From the IMG/VR virus record IMGVR_UViG_2778261571_000001, positions 1-6,584 of that record: a DNA stretch of 6,584 nucleotides; one strand, 5' to 3'. Position 1 is the first letter of the stretch, and every line of letters begins with the position of its first letter. The position numbers and the translations under genes were made by a program. The notes below the pieces were generated by a model that saw only the letters and a program-made list of their open reading frames with translations, did no database searches and was not told the DNA's origin. The DNA comes from a virus. Lineage: Duplodnaviria; Heunggongvirae; Uroviricota; Caudoviricetes. Shown here piece by piece: positions 1-6,584 of the stretch.

Positions 1-5
1 AGTTA

Positions 6-81
6 TGGTGCTGGTTAACGGACTTGAACCGCTACCCATTCGCTTACAAGGCGACTGCTCTACCATTGGAGCTAAACCAGC
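6..81 (-). tRNA. tRNA, anticodon UGU (Thr) by manual folding; 76 nt with encoded CCA
   Basis: Reverse complement of 6..81 folds as a cloverleaf: 7-bp perfect acceptor stem GCTGGTT/AACCAGC, D-stem GCTC/GAGC, anticodon stem GTCGC/GCGAA (one G:A mismatch at 27:43), loop CTTGTAA, T-stem AGCGG/CCGTT with loop TTCAAGT, discriminator A, CCA. Position 14 is C rather than the usual A. Folded by eye, not with tRNAscan. Confidence 0.6.
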
Positions 82-86
82 ATATT

Positions 87-161
87 TGGCGGGACAGCGT
101 GGACTCGAACCACGATAAGAAGGTTAACAGCCTTCCGTGATTACCTTTATACGACTGACCC
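87..161 (-). tRNA. tRNA-like element with Asn-type anticodon loop (GUU); degenerate D-arm, possible pseudo-tRNA
   Basis: Reverse complement shows a perfect T-arm CGTGG-TTCGAGT-CCACG, a perfect anticodon arm GAAGG-CTGTTAA-CCTTC and an encoded CCA, but the D-stem GTAT/TCAC has two mismatches and the acceptor stem GGGTCAG/CTGTCCC has a T:T mismatch at position 4:69. It starts immediately after the tR' U-tract and lies 5 nt upstream of the first tRNA. Confidence 0.4.
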
Positions 162-162
162 A

Positions 163-224
163 AATAAAAAATCCCGAAACCGTTGTGCAGGCTCTAACTA
201 TTACCTGCGAACTGTTTCGGGATT
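163..224 (-). terminator. Rho-independent terminator, lambda tR'-like (end of a 6S-like late leader RNA)
   Basis: On the minus strand a long imperfect hairpin AATCCCGAAAC...GGTTTCGGGATT (plus 171..224) is followed directly by TTTTTTAT. It closely matches my recollection of the lambda tR' sequence. Confidence 0.8.
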
Positions 225-354
225 GCATTTTGCAGACCTCTCAGCCTGCGATGGTTGGAGTTCCAGACGATACGTCGAAGTGACCAACTAGGCGGAATCG
301 GTAGTAAGCGCCGCCTCTTTTTATCTCACTACCACAACGAGCGAATTAACCCAT

Positions 355-1603: not shown

Positions 1604-2128
1604 TTATCCTCTCCCATGATTATGGTGATACCCCAATCGTGATTCCGCCAATTTTCTGGCATTAACGGCTAGAGATATGTCATCGTATAATCCAAGAAAT
1701 ATCTTTTTATTATCACTGTTTATATATGCGCCCCACTTTTTATTCTTCTTATAGTAGGCAACACCCATTACTCCAGAGCGATTATTAATAGGCTTTTTTC
1801 TGTTCCTTGAGTTCTGTTTATCATCTACAACGCGCAAATTGCATATTCTGTTATCGCTTTTAATTCCATTTATGTGGTCAATTTCCCCATCAGGTTCGCT
1901 TCCATAAAATGATATCCATGCGATTCTATGAGCTCGACAAACTTTTTTATTTACAGATATACGAACGTATCCTTTTTCATCTATAGAACCAGCAATCTTA
2001 CCGGCATATGTTGAATTCCAGCACTCTCTTACACTTTCTCTTCTTTTGTATATAAACAAACCTGTTTCGCTATTATATTCATACAATTCATTGATTTCTT
2101 TTTGTGTTGGATATCTTTTACCGTTCAT
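1604..2128 (-). CDS. HNH homing-type endonuclease with C-terminal AP2 DNA-binding domain
   Basis: 174-aa ORF with ATG start. HNH core EIDHINGIKSDNRICNLRVV and an AP2-like segment SGVMGVAYYKKNKKWGAYI. The gene is visibly more AT-rich than its neighbours. Its start overlaps the upstream stop (ATGA). Confidence 0.8.
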   Translation of the reverse strand: MNGKRYPTQKEINELYEYNSETGLFIYKRRESVRECWNSTYAGKIAGSIDEKGYVRISVNKKVCRAHRIAWISFYGSEPDGEIDHINGIKSDNRICNLRVVDDKQNSRNRKKPINNRSGVMGVAYYKKNKKWGAYINSDNKKIFLGLYDDISLAVNARKLAESRLGYHHNHGRG

Positions 2129-4708: not shown

Positions 4709-6145
4709 TCAGAATCCTCCTTTCTTCTTGGACTGCGGTTCCTCGCGTTCACGGCGGCGCATTTCAGCAGACTGTTGGTCTGTGTCATAAATAGCGCCAT
4801 TTGCCTGAATGCAATACACCGTGCCGGTATTGCCATGACGATTGAGACGAAGGATTAGTTCGGTTTCACCAGGTGGAACACTGTCATCAAAAGCACCTTC
4901 ACGATGGATCCCCACCCAATAATCGCAATCCTGTTCAATCTGCCCTGTATCTCTGGAGTCACTTGGTAATGGGCGTTTATTGGTTCGGCTTTCCAGTGCG
5001 CGGTTAAGCTGTGTCAGAAGCACAACAACGCAATCAAGCTCTTTGGCAAGGTTCTTCAGTCCTTTGGTGATCATGCCGTAAGCAAGGTCGTTGCGATCGG
5101 CCTTTTCAGCGGTCATTAGTGTCAGGTAATCGACCAGAATCATGCCAACACATCCTTTTTCTCGCTTGATTCGACGGCTTTCGCTGACGATTTGAGCCAG
5201 AGATAATCCCGGCGTGTCGTCGATGTAAAGCAGGTCGATTTCACTTAAGCGATTGGCTGTTTCGATCGCCCTGTTGAAGTCACCATCGTAATCACCCTGA
5301 TAGCCGTCATCAGCGTCATTTGTCGCCGGAAGGTAAAAAATATTCGGGTTAACACCTGACTTCTGTCCCACCAGTTTTTCCAGTATCTGGTCACCAGGCA
5401 TTTCAAGGCTGAACATCAGAGCGGGCTTTTTCTCATGCACTGCGCAGTTGATTGCCATCTGGCTGTATAGCGTCGTTTTCCCCATCTTAGGGCGGGCGCC
5501 AATGACAAACAGAGAGCCTTTCACCAGACCTTTCGGTGACAGCATCCTGTCCAGCGATGGGATCCCTGTGCTCATTCCTCGTTGCTCGCCTGACGGGTCA
5601 AATCGCTTCTCAAGGTCGCTAACCCAGTCTTCCATGACCTCACCAAATGAGCGAAGGCCGCGACGCGATCCGGTTTTTGCATGGTCTGTCAGTTGCGTGA
5701 AAATCGCCTGAATAGCTTCGTACTTCTGCGTTGCAGTCATTCCGTTGCGGGAATATAGCAATTCCGTCGCTTCAGTCATGCGGTTGATGGCGTAGCGTTC
5801 CATTGCGGTTTCGCGAACCTGCATTGCATAGGCAACGATGTTTGCGGAGCTTGGCGTGTTCTTTGCGATCTCAGCGATATAAGCAAAACCGCCAACAGAC
5901 GCCGTTAACGATTTACGCTCCAGTTCATCGAAAAGCGTCAGGCCATCTACTGGCTTTTGCTCCCGGTGCATTCTGGTTATTTCTTCGAAAAGGATTTTGT
6001 GTGGTCGGCTGTAAAATGAATCAGGCTTCAGCATCGCCAGAACTTTCTGGACGCGCTCACTGCTGTCATCATCCAGAAGCAATCCACCAATCACCGCCTG
6101 CTCTGCCTCGATGCTATTTGGCGGCGAATAAAAATTATCGGTCAT
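4709..6145 (-). CDS. Replicative DNA helicase, DnaB family (phage P22 gene 12-type)
   Basis: Walker A GARPKMGKT, DnaB N-terminal motif SIEAEQAVIGGLL, and a DnaB-like H2 region GMILVDYLTLM. I place the start at the ATG at 6145..6143 (GAGG Shine-Dalgarno ~9 nt upstream) rather than the GTG at 6160 used by the ORF track. Confidence 0.9.
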   Translation of the reverse strand: MTDNFYSPPNSIEAEQAVIGGLLLDDDSSERVQKVLAMLKPDSFYSRPHKILFEEITRMHREQKPVDGLTLFDELERKSLTASVGGFAYIAEIAKNTPSSANIVAYAMQVRETAMERYAINRMTEATELLYSRNGMTATQKYEAIQAIFTQLTDHAKTGSRRGLRSFGEVMEDWVSDLEKRFDPSGEQRGMSTGIPSLDRMLSPKGLVKGSLFVIGARPKMGKTTLYSQMAINCAVHEKKPALMFSLEMPGDQILEKLVGQKSGVNPNIFYLPATNDADDGYQGDYDGDFNRAIETANRLSEIDLLYIDDTPGLSLAQIVSESRRIKREKGCVGMILVDYLTLMTAEKADRNDLAYGMITKGLKNLAKELDCVVVLLTQLNRALESRTNKRPLPSDSRDTGQIEQDCDYWVGIHREGAFDDSVPPGETELILRLNRHGNTGTVYCIQANGAIYDTDQQSAEMRRREREEPQSKKKGGF

Positions 6146-6584
6146 CGTGTTCACCCTCACGAACTTTCAGGTAGGTATTATCGTTAAGCAGGAAATCAAA
6201 TCCCTTTTTGTGCCAGACGGTTCCGCGCTGATGGTTTGGGCGCTCTTCGAACATCCATCGGCAATTTTCGCCTACGTAGTTCAAATAATTTCTCCAGTCC
6301 TGCATCGTGAACCCATGCCCGTCAAGCTGGCGGGTTATCACTCCGGCTTTGCGCCAGAACGTTCGGATCTGGTTTTTACGCTTGTCATTCAGTGCGCGGA
6401 TTTTTGGCGCTTCAGGAAGGATTTCGTGGTAAGCATCGACAACATCCTGACAGCTGACGGAAGGTTTTTTCTTGTCAGACTTTTTGTCTGCTGTGGCACT
6501 CTCTAATACGTCAGTATTAGAGATATTATTTATATTATTGTTTATGGACAACCGTTGGACAACCGTTGGACAATCTCCGCTGAG
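6135..6584 (-). CDS. O-like replication initiator, C-terminal portion (5'-truncated by the window edge)
   Basis: The reading frame stays open on the minus strand to position 6584, so the TTG 'start' at 6551 in the ORF track is an artefact. The ORF contains iterons, an AT-rich tract and a palindrome, as the lambda O gene does. The stop lies 5 nt upstream of the helicase start. Confidence 0.65.
   Translation of the reverse strand, partial: LSGDCPTVVQRLSINNNINNISNTDVLESATADKKSDKKKPSVSCQDVVDAYHEILPEAPKIRALNDKRKNQIRTFWRKAGVITRQLDGHGFTMQDWRNYLNYVGENCRWMFEERPNHQRGTVWHKKGFDFLLNDNTYLKVREGEHDDR
6501..6546. other. Origin AT-rich unwinding tract (6523..6546) plus 9-bp inverted repeat CTCTAATAC/GTATTAGAG (6501..6522)
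   Basis: A strongly AT-rich stretch, with a perfect 9-bp inverted repeat and 4-bp spacer next to it. The order iterons, AT-rich, palindrome on the coding strand mirrors lambda ori. Confidence 0.55.
6547..6574. repeat. Origin iterons: tandem 11-bp direct repeats GGACAACCGTT (2 full copies plus a partial third; array may continue off-window)
   Basis: Exact tandem copies at 6547..6557 and 6558..6568, then GGACAA at 6569..6574. The ~one-helical-turn period and position next to an AT-rich tract inside the initiator gene fit iterons. Confidence 0.6.

What the first reader, a model, noticed from the sequence alone, without database searches (positions are those of the whole stretch)
6501..6584. Lambda-style origin of replication embedded in the O-like gene, cut by the window edge
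The coding strand shows iterons, then an AT-rich tract, then a palindrome, all inside an open reading frame. The 11-bp tandem repeats GGACAACCGTT lie in the linker-coding part of the initiator gene, which the AT-rich tract translates as SINNNINNISN. This is the ori architecture of lambda, but the iteron sequence is unrelated to what I recall of the lambda iterons, which suggests a distinct initiator specificity. The array probably continues beyond 6584.
Basis: partly seen in the sequence, partly recalled or inferred. Interest (0 to 1): 0.45.

Follow-up and report, generated by a model that had tools for sequence, protein, structure and literature searches.

The report
Known lambdoid phage replication origin
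The window ends inside the probable replication origin of a lambda-like phage: short repeats, an AT-rich stretch and a hairpin within the initiator gene. The same repeats are already annotated and described in phages Sf6 and L (HK620 carries a sister version), so the finding is correct but ordinary.

Summary
On the minus (coding) strand the window shows three 11-bp direct repeats (TTGTCCAACGG, 6545-6573), an AT-rich tract (6524-6544) and a perfect 10-bp-arm palindrome (6500-6523). All lie in the linker-coding part of a 5'-cut initiator gene (6135->6584), directly upstream of a DnaB-like helicase gene.

Near-identical phages (Sf6, mEp506, IME10, HK106; 98%) supply the missing part: a 33-bp spacer, then a second triplet, giving six iterons in 11-bp register. 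Some prophages carry three or nine.

The element is already annotated as a putative origin in Sf6. The same 11-mer is described as the likely origin of Salmonella phage L.

Comparisons support a lambda-like mechanism. The layout holds down to 39% protein identity. The iterons travel with the N-terminal domain, and that module is naturally swapped with lambda O's. However, the initiator is not detectably a lambda O / Pfam PF04492 homologue; its N-domain looks like a winged helix weakly related to SPP1-type replisome organisers. The iterons also lack lambda's dyad symmetry.

I found no experimental proof of origin activity.

The parts
6135..6584 (-). 3' part (149 codons plus stop) of the replication-initiator gene of the phage L gene 18 / Sf6 gene 43 / 'O' type. 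The 5' end is cut by the window edge. The full gene in close relatives is 891 bp (296 aa).
   Evidence: The frame is open to the edge. PHROG 345 'replication initiation O-like' scores 9.3e-54 on the partial protein and 5.9e-85 on the full-length Sf6 homologue. The DNA is 98% identical to IME10, mEp506, Sf6 and HK106. Annotated neighbours are shown.
6563..6573 (-). Iteron TTGTCCAACGG (coding strand); first repeat of the origin-proximal triplet, and fourth of six in Sf6/mEp506.
6552..6562 (-). Iteron TTGTCCAACGG, second of the triplet.
6541..6551 (-). Iteron TTGTCCAtaaa, third of the triplet. Only the core TTGTCCA (6545-6551) is kept; it runs into the AT-rich tract.
   Evidence: The same truncated last repeat is seen in Sf6, mEp506 and L, and a last repeat shortened in the same way, with each phage's own core, in HK620, Klebsiella phage ST101-KPC2phi6.1, CobraSix, Eho59 and L097.
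6574..6584 (-). Last 11 nt (CTCAGCGGAGA) of the 33-bp spacer that separates iteron triplets. Its presence implies at least one more triplet beyond the window edge.
   Evidence: In the relatives examined at the DNA level that have 6 or 9 iterons (Sf6, mEp506, L092/L093), and in the commonest of the 71 IMG/VR origins, this sequence lies between triplets. Single-triplet variants have GGCAAAAAA here instead.
6524..6544 (-). AT-rich tract (1 G/C in 21 nt), the presumed DNA-unwinding element. It translates as part of NNNINNIS.
   Evidence: It is invariant in 71 Sf6-type origins from IMG/VR. An AT-rich tract sits at the same position in all relatives examined.
6500..6523 (.). Perfect palindrome TCTCTAATAC-nnnn-GTATTAGAGA (10-bp arms, 4-nt loop).
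   Evidence: DNA fold z = -2.76. The hairpin is kept with changes on both arms in the Klebsiella phage (TCTCTTCTAC/GTAGAAGAGA), CobraSix (TTACTACC/GGTAGTAA), Eho59 and L097.
6138..6499 (-). Coding region of the C-terminal domain of the initiator, the presumed helicase-recruiting domain.
   Evidence: In the AF2 model residues about 190-293 are confident. The domain is about 99% identical (100% from SNTDVLES onward apart from a few substitutions) between Sf6-type and HK022/HK620-type initiators despite their different N-domains. In the phage and prophage loci examined it is followed by a DnaB-like helicase gene.
4709..6145 (-). DnaB-like replicative helicase gene (P22 gene 12 analogue). Its start overlaps the initiator's stop codon by 11 nt.
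   Evidence: Pfam DnaB 7.7e-31 and DnaB_C 2.9e-60. The start at 6145 is taken from the 1437-nt annotated homologues.

Best explanation
This is the right-hand half of the vegetative replication origin of a lambdoid phage or prophage. It belongs to the phage L / Sf6 / mEp506 origin type and sits inside the initiator gene.

**Inferred mechanism, by analogy with oriLambda:**
1. The initiator's N-terminal winged-helix domain binds the 11-bp direct repeats. These come in triplets set 66 bp apart, all in one 11-bp register, and so roughly on one face of the helix.
2. The resulting nucleoprotein complex destabilises the adjacent AT-rich tract.
3. The C-terminal domain brings in the phage's own DnaB-like helicase, encoded by the next, overlapping gene.

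**What is shown here:** the sequence elements, their order, their conservation, their co-inheritance with the N-domain, and their interchangeability with the lambda O module.

**What is inferred:** binding, unwinding and helicase loading.
For: 1. **Elements present and non-random**.
2. **Conserved geometry.** The layout is three iterons, a 33-bp spacer, three iterons, an AT-rich tract, then a palindrome, with iteron starts at 0, 11, 22, 66, 77 and 88. It holds in Sf6, mEp506, L, HK620, HK022, Klebsiella phage ST101-KPC2phi6.1, Enterobacter phage CobraSix, Erwinia phage Eho59 and an IMG/VR contig whose protein is only 39% identical.
3. **DNA-level selection.** An 11-bp period is not a multiple of 3, so each triplet is read in all three frames; selection on a peptide repeat cannot explain it.
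   - Among 71 Sf6-type origins, 3 of 46 iteron-core positions vary, against 10 of 33 spacer positions and 0 of 46 AT-rich/palindrome positions.
   - One contig has the linker peptide frame-shifted across the iterons while the DNA repeats are kept.
4. **Iterons travel with the N-domain, not the C-domain.**
   - mEp506 against HK620: C-domain 99% identical, N-domain 45%, iterons different. The megablast match to HK620/HK022 stops exactly at window 6545.
   - Klebsiella phage against Eho59: C-domains of different families (28%), N-domain 58%, identical iteron consensus.
5. **Natural chimeras with lambda O.**
   - Eho59, P0126 and P0172 join this N-domain and its iterons to a lambda-O C-domain. 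For Eho59 that domain is 70% identical to lambda's (6e-63) and a lambda-P-like gene follows.
   - P0136 joins a lambda-O N-domain to this C-domain.
6. **Structure.** AF2 gives two confident domains (28-123 and 190-293) joined by a low-confidence linker (124-188). The linker is the part encoded by the origin, as in lambda O.
7. **N-domain identity.** It gives winged-helix matches, and 8 of 90 diverse relatives hit Pfam Phage_rep_org_N. tblastn also finds SPP1 gene 38 at 9e-6.
8. **Prior annotation and literature.** Sf6 and HK620 carry rep_origin features, and phage L has a published description. PMC8022706 cites genetics (Hilliker 1981) showing that the L replication region can be exchanged with P22's only as a whole.
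Against: - I found no experimental demonstration of origin firing, initiator binding or helicase recruitment for this origin type in the searchable literature.
- The initiator is not detectably homologous to lambda O. Profile-profile comparison of the N-domains gives only 24% probability.
- The iterons lack the dyad symmetry of lambda's, so the stoichiometry and geometry of binding may differ.
- The covariation statistic is modest (Spearman 0.43, p about 0.05, on 21 non-independent pairs).
- The structural model is of medium quality (pLDDT 63.8, shallow alignment) and no fold match reaches E <= 0.001.
- The window itself holds only three of the repeats.
Confidence: 0.85

Rival explanations
1. 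The repeats are only a repetitive or low-complexity coding feature of a disordered linker, produced by slippage or duplication of a 22-aa unit, with no role as DNA.
For: - The region encodes a low-confidence linker.
- The 66-bp unit varies in copy number (1, 2 or 3 units; proteins of 274, 296 or 318 aa), as expected of slippage-prone repeats.
- The two triplets encode the same peptide, CPTVVQRLS.
Against: - The basic period is 11 bp, not a multiple of 3, so peptide selection cannot maintain it.
- The layout and spacing are conserved down to 39% protein identity while the peptide changes.
- Iteron cores are far less variable than the spacer between them.
- A frame-shifted variant keeps the DNA repeats but not the peptide.
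- The repeats co-vary with the DNA-binding N-domain.
Confidence: 0.04
2. The repeats are binding sites for something other than the phage initiator (for example host DnaA or another regulator), or serve mainly in copy control or autoregulation rather than origin opening.
For: - TTGTCCAAC loosely resembles the DnaA box TTATCCACA (my reading, three mismatches).
- In lambda, plasmid-borne iterons can inhibit phage replication, apparently by titrating O (PMC3349717).
Against: - The window has no match to the DnaA-box consensus TTWTNCACA.
- Sister phages with the same C-domain and helicase use quite different repeats (TTACCAGCA in HK022/HK620), which a fixed host factor would not tolerate.
- The repeats follow the phage N-domain.
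- The adjacent AT-rich tract and the position inside the initiator gene fit an origin.
Confidence: 0.05
3. The palindrome at 6500-6523 followed by T-rich sequence on the plus strand is an intrinsic terminator for antisense transcription (an oop-like RNA), not an origin element.
For: - The consensus scan calls it terminator-like on the plus strand (10-bp stem, TATTATTTAT tail).
- The phage L record annotates predicted terminators on the opposite strand at this spot.
- The changes on both arms seen across phages would equally preserve an RNA hairpin.
Against: - The stem has only 3 G-C pairs, the tail is not a U-run, and the scan expects 0.6 such calls by chance in this region.
- No antisense promoter was identified.
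- Lambda and P22 have a palindrome at the equivalent place next to their AT-rich tracts.
- This reading would in any case leave the iteron and AT-rich interpretation untouched.
Confidence: 0.06

Closest known systems
Putative origin in gene 18 of Salmonella phage L (MW013503; Zaworski et al., G3 2021, PMC8022706)
   Same: [quoted passage not shown]
- The layout is the same 3+3, with the same AT-rich tract and a palindrome differing by one loop base.
- The initiator is 82% identical, and a DnaB-like helicase follows.
   Different: - Phage L has A rather than T at repeat position 1 in three copies and small spacer differences.
- Its host is Salmonella.
- The window shows only the proximal triplet.
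Annotated rep_origin in Shigella phage Sf6 gene 43 (AF547987, 28385-28480), and its HK620/HK022 sister type (HK620 O, AF335538, has an annotated rep_origin)
   Same: - Sf6 is 98% identical in DNA to the window across this stretch. Its annotated origin corresponds to window 6545 to about 6640.
- HK620/HK022 share the AT-rich tract, the palindrome, the C-domain and the helicase.
   Different: - Sf6: no meaningful difference.
- HK620/HK022 have a different N-domain (about 45% identical) and different iterons ((T/A)(G/T)TACCAGCA(G/A)). The mosaic joint falls exactly at window 6545.
oriLambda inside gene O of phage lambda
   Same: - The origin lies inside the initiator gene, in the linker between a DNA-binding N-domain and a partner-binding C-domain.
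- The order is iterons, AT-rich tract, palindrome, in the direction of transcription from pR.
- The N-domain-plus-iteron module is naturally exchanged with lambda's.
   Different: - Lambda has four 18-bp dyad-symmetric iterons, bound by O dimers according to the cited literature. Here there are 11-bp asymmetric direct repeats in triplets.
- The N-domain is not PF04492.
- The partner is a phage DnaB-like helicase, not lambda P plus host DnaB.
Origin in gene 18 of Salmonella phage P22
   Same: - The position and element order are the same.
- The partner is also a DnaB-like helicase (gene 12).
- The C-domain is weakly similar (25% over 116 aa, E=2e-4).
   Different: - P22 gp18's N-domain belongs to the lambda O family (48% identical to lambda O).
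- Its iterons are four repeats of about 20 bp built on TCGGTAAAA.
SPP1 G38P replisome organiser and oriL (Pfam Phage_rep_org_N, PF09681)
   Same: - There is weak N-domain similarity: tblastn 9e-6 to SPP1 gene 38, and 8 of 90 diverse relatives hit PF09681.
- From my own knowledge, SPP1 oriL also lies within gene 38 and consists of direct repeats next to an AT-rich region.
   Different: - The window-type protein itself does not reach any Pfam threshold.
- The host range, partner proteins (G39P/G40P) and repeat sequences differ.
- The relationship is not established here.

Membership tests
Phage L / Sf6-type putative origin (six 11-bp TGTCCAACGG repeats inside the initiator gene) | 11-bp TGTCCAACGG direct repeats arranged as triplets | tested here: met
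   The window has three in-register copies at 6541-6573. They are identical to the proximal triplet of Sf6 and mEp506.
Phage L / Sf6-type putative origin (six 11-bp TGTCCAACGG repeats inside the initiator gene) | A second triplet 66 bp upstream, giving six repeats in all | tested here: inconclusive
   That sequence lies beyond the window. The 11 nt of spacer at 6574-6584 match the inter-triplet spacer and not the single-triplet junction, so at least two triplets are implied.
Phage L / Sf6-type putative origin (six 11-bp TGTCCAACGG repeats inside the initiator gene) | Initiator protein of the L gp18 / Sf6 gp43 family, followed by a DnaB-like helicase gene | tested here: met
   The match is PHROG 345 at 9.3e-54. 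The region is 98% identical in DNA to Sf6. The helicase has Pfam DnaB and DnaB_C.
Lambda-type origin architecture (oriLambda-like) | The origin lies inside the initiator gene, in the inter-domain linker | tested here: met
   The frame is open through the elements. The AF2 linker, residues 124-188, coincides with them.
Lambda-type origin architecture (oriLambda-like) | Iterons, then an AT-rich tract, then a palindrome, in the direction of transcription | tested here: met
   Compare lambda and P22.
Lambda-type origin architecture (oriLambda-like) | Iterons of about 18 bp with internal dyad symmetry | tested here: not met
   The repeats are 11 bp, direct, and without dyad symmetry. The lambda iterons TCCCTC...GAGGGA are shown.
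Lambda O protein family (Pfam PF04492, Phage_rep_O) | The N-terminal domain matches PF04492 | tested here: not met
   - The full-length Sf6, mEp506, HK620, Klebsiella-phage and Eho59 homologues give no hit, while lambda O scores 5.7e-36.
- BLASTP against lambda O gives E=4.4.
- Local hhalign gives 24% probability.
- The N-domain itself lies outside the window.
Lambda O protein family (Pfam PF04492, Phage_rep_O) | The C-terminal domain is homologous to lambda O's P-binding domain | tested here: not met
   The protein shows no similarity to the lambda O C-terminus. By contrast, Eho59's C-domain is 70% identical to lambda's. The window's C-domain is the helicase-partnered type, weakly similar to that of P22 gp18.
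SPP1 G38P-type replisome organiser (PF09681) | The N-terminal origin-binding domain matches PF09681 | tested here: inconclusive
   The protein itself gives no hit. Eight of 90 relatives (50% identical to it or less) match, the best at 7e-06, and tblastn to SPP1 gene 38 gives 9e-6.
Functional replication origin (any type) | Initiator binding to the repeats, and origin-dependent replication | not testable with these tools
   I found no experimental report for this origin type.

The most novel reading that the evidence does not exclude
The L/Sf6/HK022 origin class may open DNA differently from the lambda O-some. Its features are asymmetric 11-bp repeats in helical register, grouped in triplets on a 66-bp module that occurs naturally as 1, 2 or 3 copies, together with a winged-helix N-domain closer to SPP1-type replisome organisers than to lambda O. 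These suggest head-to-tail arrays of initiator monomers on one face of the helix rather than dimers on dyad sites. Module copy number (3, 6 or 9 iterons) would then tune origin strength, or tell active phages from decaying prophages.
Probability: 0.25. Interest if true: 0.35.

Novelty: already known. Interest (0 to 1): 0.12.

Why it matters
It adds little. The element is a correct rediscovery of a putative origin already annotated in Sf6 and described in phage L, and it is common: 89 phage records match at megablast level, and there are 311 IMG/VR relatives. A sister version is annotated in HK620.

Its residual value is as an untested model. No one appears to have shown biochemically how this very widespread initiator class recognises 11-bp direct repeats and recruits its own DnaB-like helicase. 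The class has about 8,500 protein clusters at 50% identity. The natural 3/6/9-iteron variants and the swaps with lambda O would make clean experimental material.

Tried and rejected
- **Literature search for the iteron string**: returned only unrelated primer sequences.
- **Reading Oberto et al. 1994 on HK022 O/P** (PMC523588): the paper is not held.
- **PDB sequence search** with the protein, with a 90-sequence profile, and with lambda O: only weak winged-helix matches, and no solved lambda O.
- **Foldseek of the AF2 model against PDB**: generic winged-helix regulators, none at E <= 0.001. This supports the fold class only, not a family.
- **hhalign of N-domain profiles against lambda O / P22 gp18**: 24% probability, so neither homology nor its absence is established.
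- **DnaA-box reading of the repeats**: rejected.
- **Iteron copies elsewhere in the window**, as possible autoregulatory sites: none above chance.
- **IMG/VR scan with a distant relative, P0132**: one locus only, but it confirmed the layout.
- **Identifying the window's exact source:** no record covers 80% or more of it in the phage collection. The best E. coli genome covers 89% at 96% identity. The window is a new mosaic of known modules.

Full report
**What is in the window**

All genes in the 6,584-bp window read on the minus strand. Together they form the right end of a lambdoid early-right operon. In the direction of transcription:

| Window coordinates | Gene |
|---|---|
| >6584-6135 | 5'-cut initiator gene |
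| 6145-4709 | DnaB-like helicase (Pfam DnaB 7.7e-31, DnaB_C 2.9e-60) |
| 3889-3479 | NinB |
| 3345-3133 | NinF |
| 3140-2415 | Roi/Ant-like protein |
| 2415-2125 | YbcO |
| 2128-1604 | HNH_3 endonuclease |
| 1603-1241 | RusA |
| 1244-1056 | NinH |
| 1059-436 | Antiterminator Q |

The finding concerns the last 85 bases of the window.

**Check of the observation**

- **Repeats.** Tandem Repeats Finder reports an 11-bp unit, 2.6 copies, 100% match, at 6545-6573. On the coding strand this reads TTGTCCAACGG TTGTCCAACGG TTGTCCA. A perfect tandem of this length arose in 0 of 1000 first-order Markov resamplings of the window.
- **AT-rich tract.** 6524-6544 has 1 G/C in 21 nt. GC is 0.20 over 6500-6539.
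- **Palindrome.** There is a perfect 10+10 palindrome with a 4-nt loop at 6500-6523. Folded as DNA it gives z = -2.76.
- **Frame.** The reading frame stays open to the window edge and reads ...SINNNINNISNTDVLES....

The contiguous array ends inside the window at 6573, and 6574-6584 is spacer.

**What lies beyond the edge**

The last 485 bases match 89 phage records. Of these, 87 cover at least 80% of the query and 72 are 95-99% identical; they include IME10, mEp506, HK106, HK629, mEp234 and Sf6.

In Sf6 and mEp506 the gene is 891 bp (296 aa). On the coding strand its middle reads:

- three iterons
- a 33-bp spacer ending CTCAGCGGAGA
- three iterons
- TAAACAATAATATAAATAATA
- TCTCTAATAC-TGAC-GTATTAGAGA

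Iteron starts fall at 0, 11, 22, 66, 77 and 88, so all share one 11-bp register. The window holds the origin-proximal triplet plus the last 11 nt of the spacer.

Relatives also exist with one, two or three 66-bp units, giving proteins of 274, 296 and 318 aa. I confirmed these at the DNA level as 3, 6 and 9 iterons. Single-unit alleles have GGCAAAAAA in front of the triplet. The window has the spacer tail instead, so it must carry at least two triplets.

**Already described**

- GenBank AF547987 (Sf6) annotates exactly this stretch as 'rep_origin: putative; repeat region reminiscent of the phage lambda origin; similar to phage HK620'.
- HK620 and phage L carry rep_origin features at the same place.
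[quoted passage not shown] It adds that L gp18 is only 15% identical to lambda O and 25% to P22 gp18 (PMC8022706).
- L gp18 is 82.5% identical to the Sf6-type protein.

**Evidence that the repeats act as DNA and belong to the initiator's N-domain**

*Layout conservation.* The 3+33+3 layout, the AT-rich tract and a hairpin are conserved with identical spacing in Sf6, mEp506, L, HK620, HK022, Klebsiella phage ST101-KPC2phi6.1, Enterobacter phage CobraSix and Erwinia phage Eho59. They also hold in an IMG/VR contig whose protein is 39% identical. The repeat sequence differs between lineages:

| Lineage | Repeat core |
|---|---|
| Window, Sf6, mEp506, L | TGTCCAAC |
| HK620, HK022 | TTACCAGCA |
| Klebsiella phage ST101-KPC2phi6.1, Eho59 | TGCCAAC (Eho59's middle repeat TGCCATC) |
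| IMG/VR contig L097 | TGCCATC |
| CobraSix | TGTCCAGCC |

*Period.* An 11-bp period cannot be maintained by selection on a peptide, because each triplet is read in all three frames.

*Within-lineage variation.* Among 71 Sf6-type origins from IMG/VR, 3 of 46 iteron-core positions vary. The comparison values are 10 of 33 spacer positions and 0 of 46 AT-rich/palindrome positions.

*Frame-shifted variant.* One contig has lost an A from the A-run and one whole iteron. The linker peptide is frame-shifted across the repeats, yet the repeats and the downstream frame are kept. This is a single assembly, so I give it little weight.

*Co-inheritance with the N-domain.*
- HK620 and HK022 share the AT-rich tract, the palindrome, a C-domain about 99% identical and the helicase with the window.
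- Their N-domains are only about 45% identical, and their iterons differ.
- Their megablast matches to the window stop exactly at 6545.
- Conversely, the Klebsiella phage and Eho59 have unrelated C-domains (28%) but similar N-domains (58%) and the same iteron consensus.
- Across 21 pairs, iteron similarity tracks N-domain identity (Spearman 0.43, p about 0.05) and not C-domain identity (-0.13).

*Palindrome.* It changes sequence between lineages but stays paired:
- TCTCTTCTAC/GTAGAAGAGA in the Klebsiella phage
- TTACTACC/GGTAGTAA in CobraSix
- ATCTAATAC/GTATTAGAT in Eho59

The encoded amino acids change as a result.

**Works like lambda, but is not a lambda O family member**

Lambda's origin has four 18-bp dyad-symmetric iterons, an AT-rich tract and a palindrome, in the same order inside gene O (PMC3349717). 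P22 has the same plan with four repeats of about 20 bp.

Natural chimeras show that the modules are interchangeable.
- Eho59 O carries this N-domain type (42% identical, 3e-31), its iterons, and a C-domain 70% identical to lambda O's (6e-63). A lambda-P-like gene follows.
- P0126 and P0172 have the same build as Eho59 O.
- P0136 is the reverse: a lambda-O N-domain joined to this C-domain.

By sequence, however, the protein is not related to lambda O.
- BLASTP gives E=4.4.
- No PF04492 hit appears, although lambda O scores 5.7e-36 in the same scan.
- A local profile-profile comparison of N-domains gives a colinear alignment at only 24% probability.
- P22 gp18's N-domain does belong to the lambda O family (48% identical). 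Only its C-domain resembles ours, and weakly (E=2e-4).

What the domains look like:
- The AF2 model (pLDDT 63.8) has two confident domains, residues 28-123 and 190-293. A low-confidence linker, 124-188, joins them and coincides with the origin-coding DNA.
- The N-domain has a helix-turn-helix plus wing. It finds only generic winged-helix regulators in the PDB.
- Eight of 90 diverse relatives match Pfam Phage_rep_org_N, and tblastn reaches SPP1 gene 38 at 9e-6.
- The family is large: 8,469 clusters at E <= 1e-3. The two domains are found independently of each other.

**Mechanism**

*Shown here:* the elements, their order and geometry, constraint at the DNA level, co-inheritance with the N-domain, interchangeability with lambda's module, and the adjacent overlapping helicase gene.

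*Inferred:*
1. The N-domain binds the 11-bp repeats. These are probably bound as head-to-tail arrays, because the sites are asymmetric and in helical register.
2. The complex melts the AT-rich tract.
3. The C-domain loads the phage DnaB-like helicase.

The role of the palindrome is unknown. An antisense terminator is a minor alternative.

I found no experimental test of this origin type. The nearest experimental work concerns lambda-type O proteins of Stx phages, which have six iterons (PMC7466680).

**Verdict**

The element is an already annotated and published, though biochemically untested, origin type that is very common in enterobacterial lambdoid phages. Novelty: already known. Interest: low.

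Noticed in passing
Relatives L092/L093 (1864-2096), L094/L095 (1864-1964), L002: The origin varies in copy number by whole 66-bp units (three iterons plus spacer). E. coli prophages with 318-aa initiators carry 9 iterons, the common form carries 6, and a Shigella flexneri 8401 prophage carries 3. In that Shigella prophage an IS4-family transposase gene sits where cro/cI should be, so it looks defective.
   Followed up: yes
L096 680-834 (Logan contig SRR23153152_3127): This variant has lost one A from the A-run and one whole iteron. The linker peptide is frame-shifted across the iterons (IVQRLSNGCPTQTPVMARLSAEIVQRLS) and then returns to frame. The peptide looks dispensable and the DNA repeats are kept. 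It is a single assembly, so an error cannot be excluded.
   Followed up: partly
L089 (Erwinia phage Eho59, 838-1788); proteins P0126, P0172, P0136, P0123, P0139: Natural domain chimeras exist. This N-domain and its iterons are fused to a lambda-O C-domain, with a lambda-P-like gene downstream. A lambda-O N-domain is fused to this C-domain. At least two further N-domain types are joined to this C-domain.
   Followed up: partly
window 6545: Megablast matches of HK620, HK022, mEp235 and several E. coli prophages stop exactly at the junction between the iterons and the AT-rich tract. This marks a recombination joint inside the initiator gene.
   Followed up: yes
L099 (HK97 gene O, 653-): HK97 Gp54 begins MGVVKLADYR, identical to the first 10 residues of the Sf6-type initiator, but then continues as a lambda/P22-type N-domain. 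This suggests a second mosaic joint near the 5' end of the gene.
   Followed up: no
window 1604-2128 (-): A 174-aa HNH_3 endonuclease gene (Pfam 1e-16) sits between ybcO and rusA in the nin region. It may be a mobile homing-endonuclease insertion. The best-matching phages align to the window only in several pieces.
   Followed up: no
window 1-335: The sequence downstream of Q (in the direction of transcription) is not covered by the best phage matches (HK633, HK620, HK022), which start at 336. I did not examine it for the late promoter or a qut site.
   Followed up: no
window 6500-6535 (+): The origin palindrome followed by TATTATTTAT is scored as terminator-like on the plus (antisense) strand. 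The phage L record annotates predicted terminators on that strand at the same place.
   Followed up: partly
window 6135-6145: The initiator's stop codon and the helicase start codon overlap by 11 nt, with the ATG at 6145 by homology. This is consistent with translational coupling of the two replication genes.
   Followed up: no
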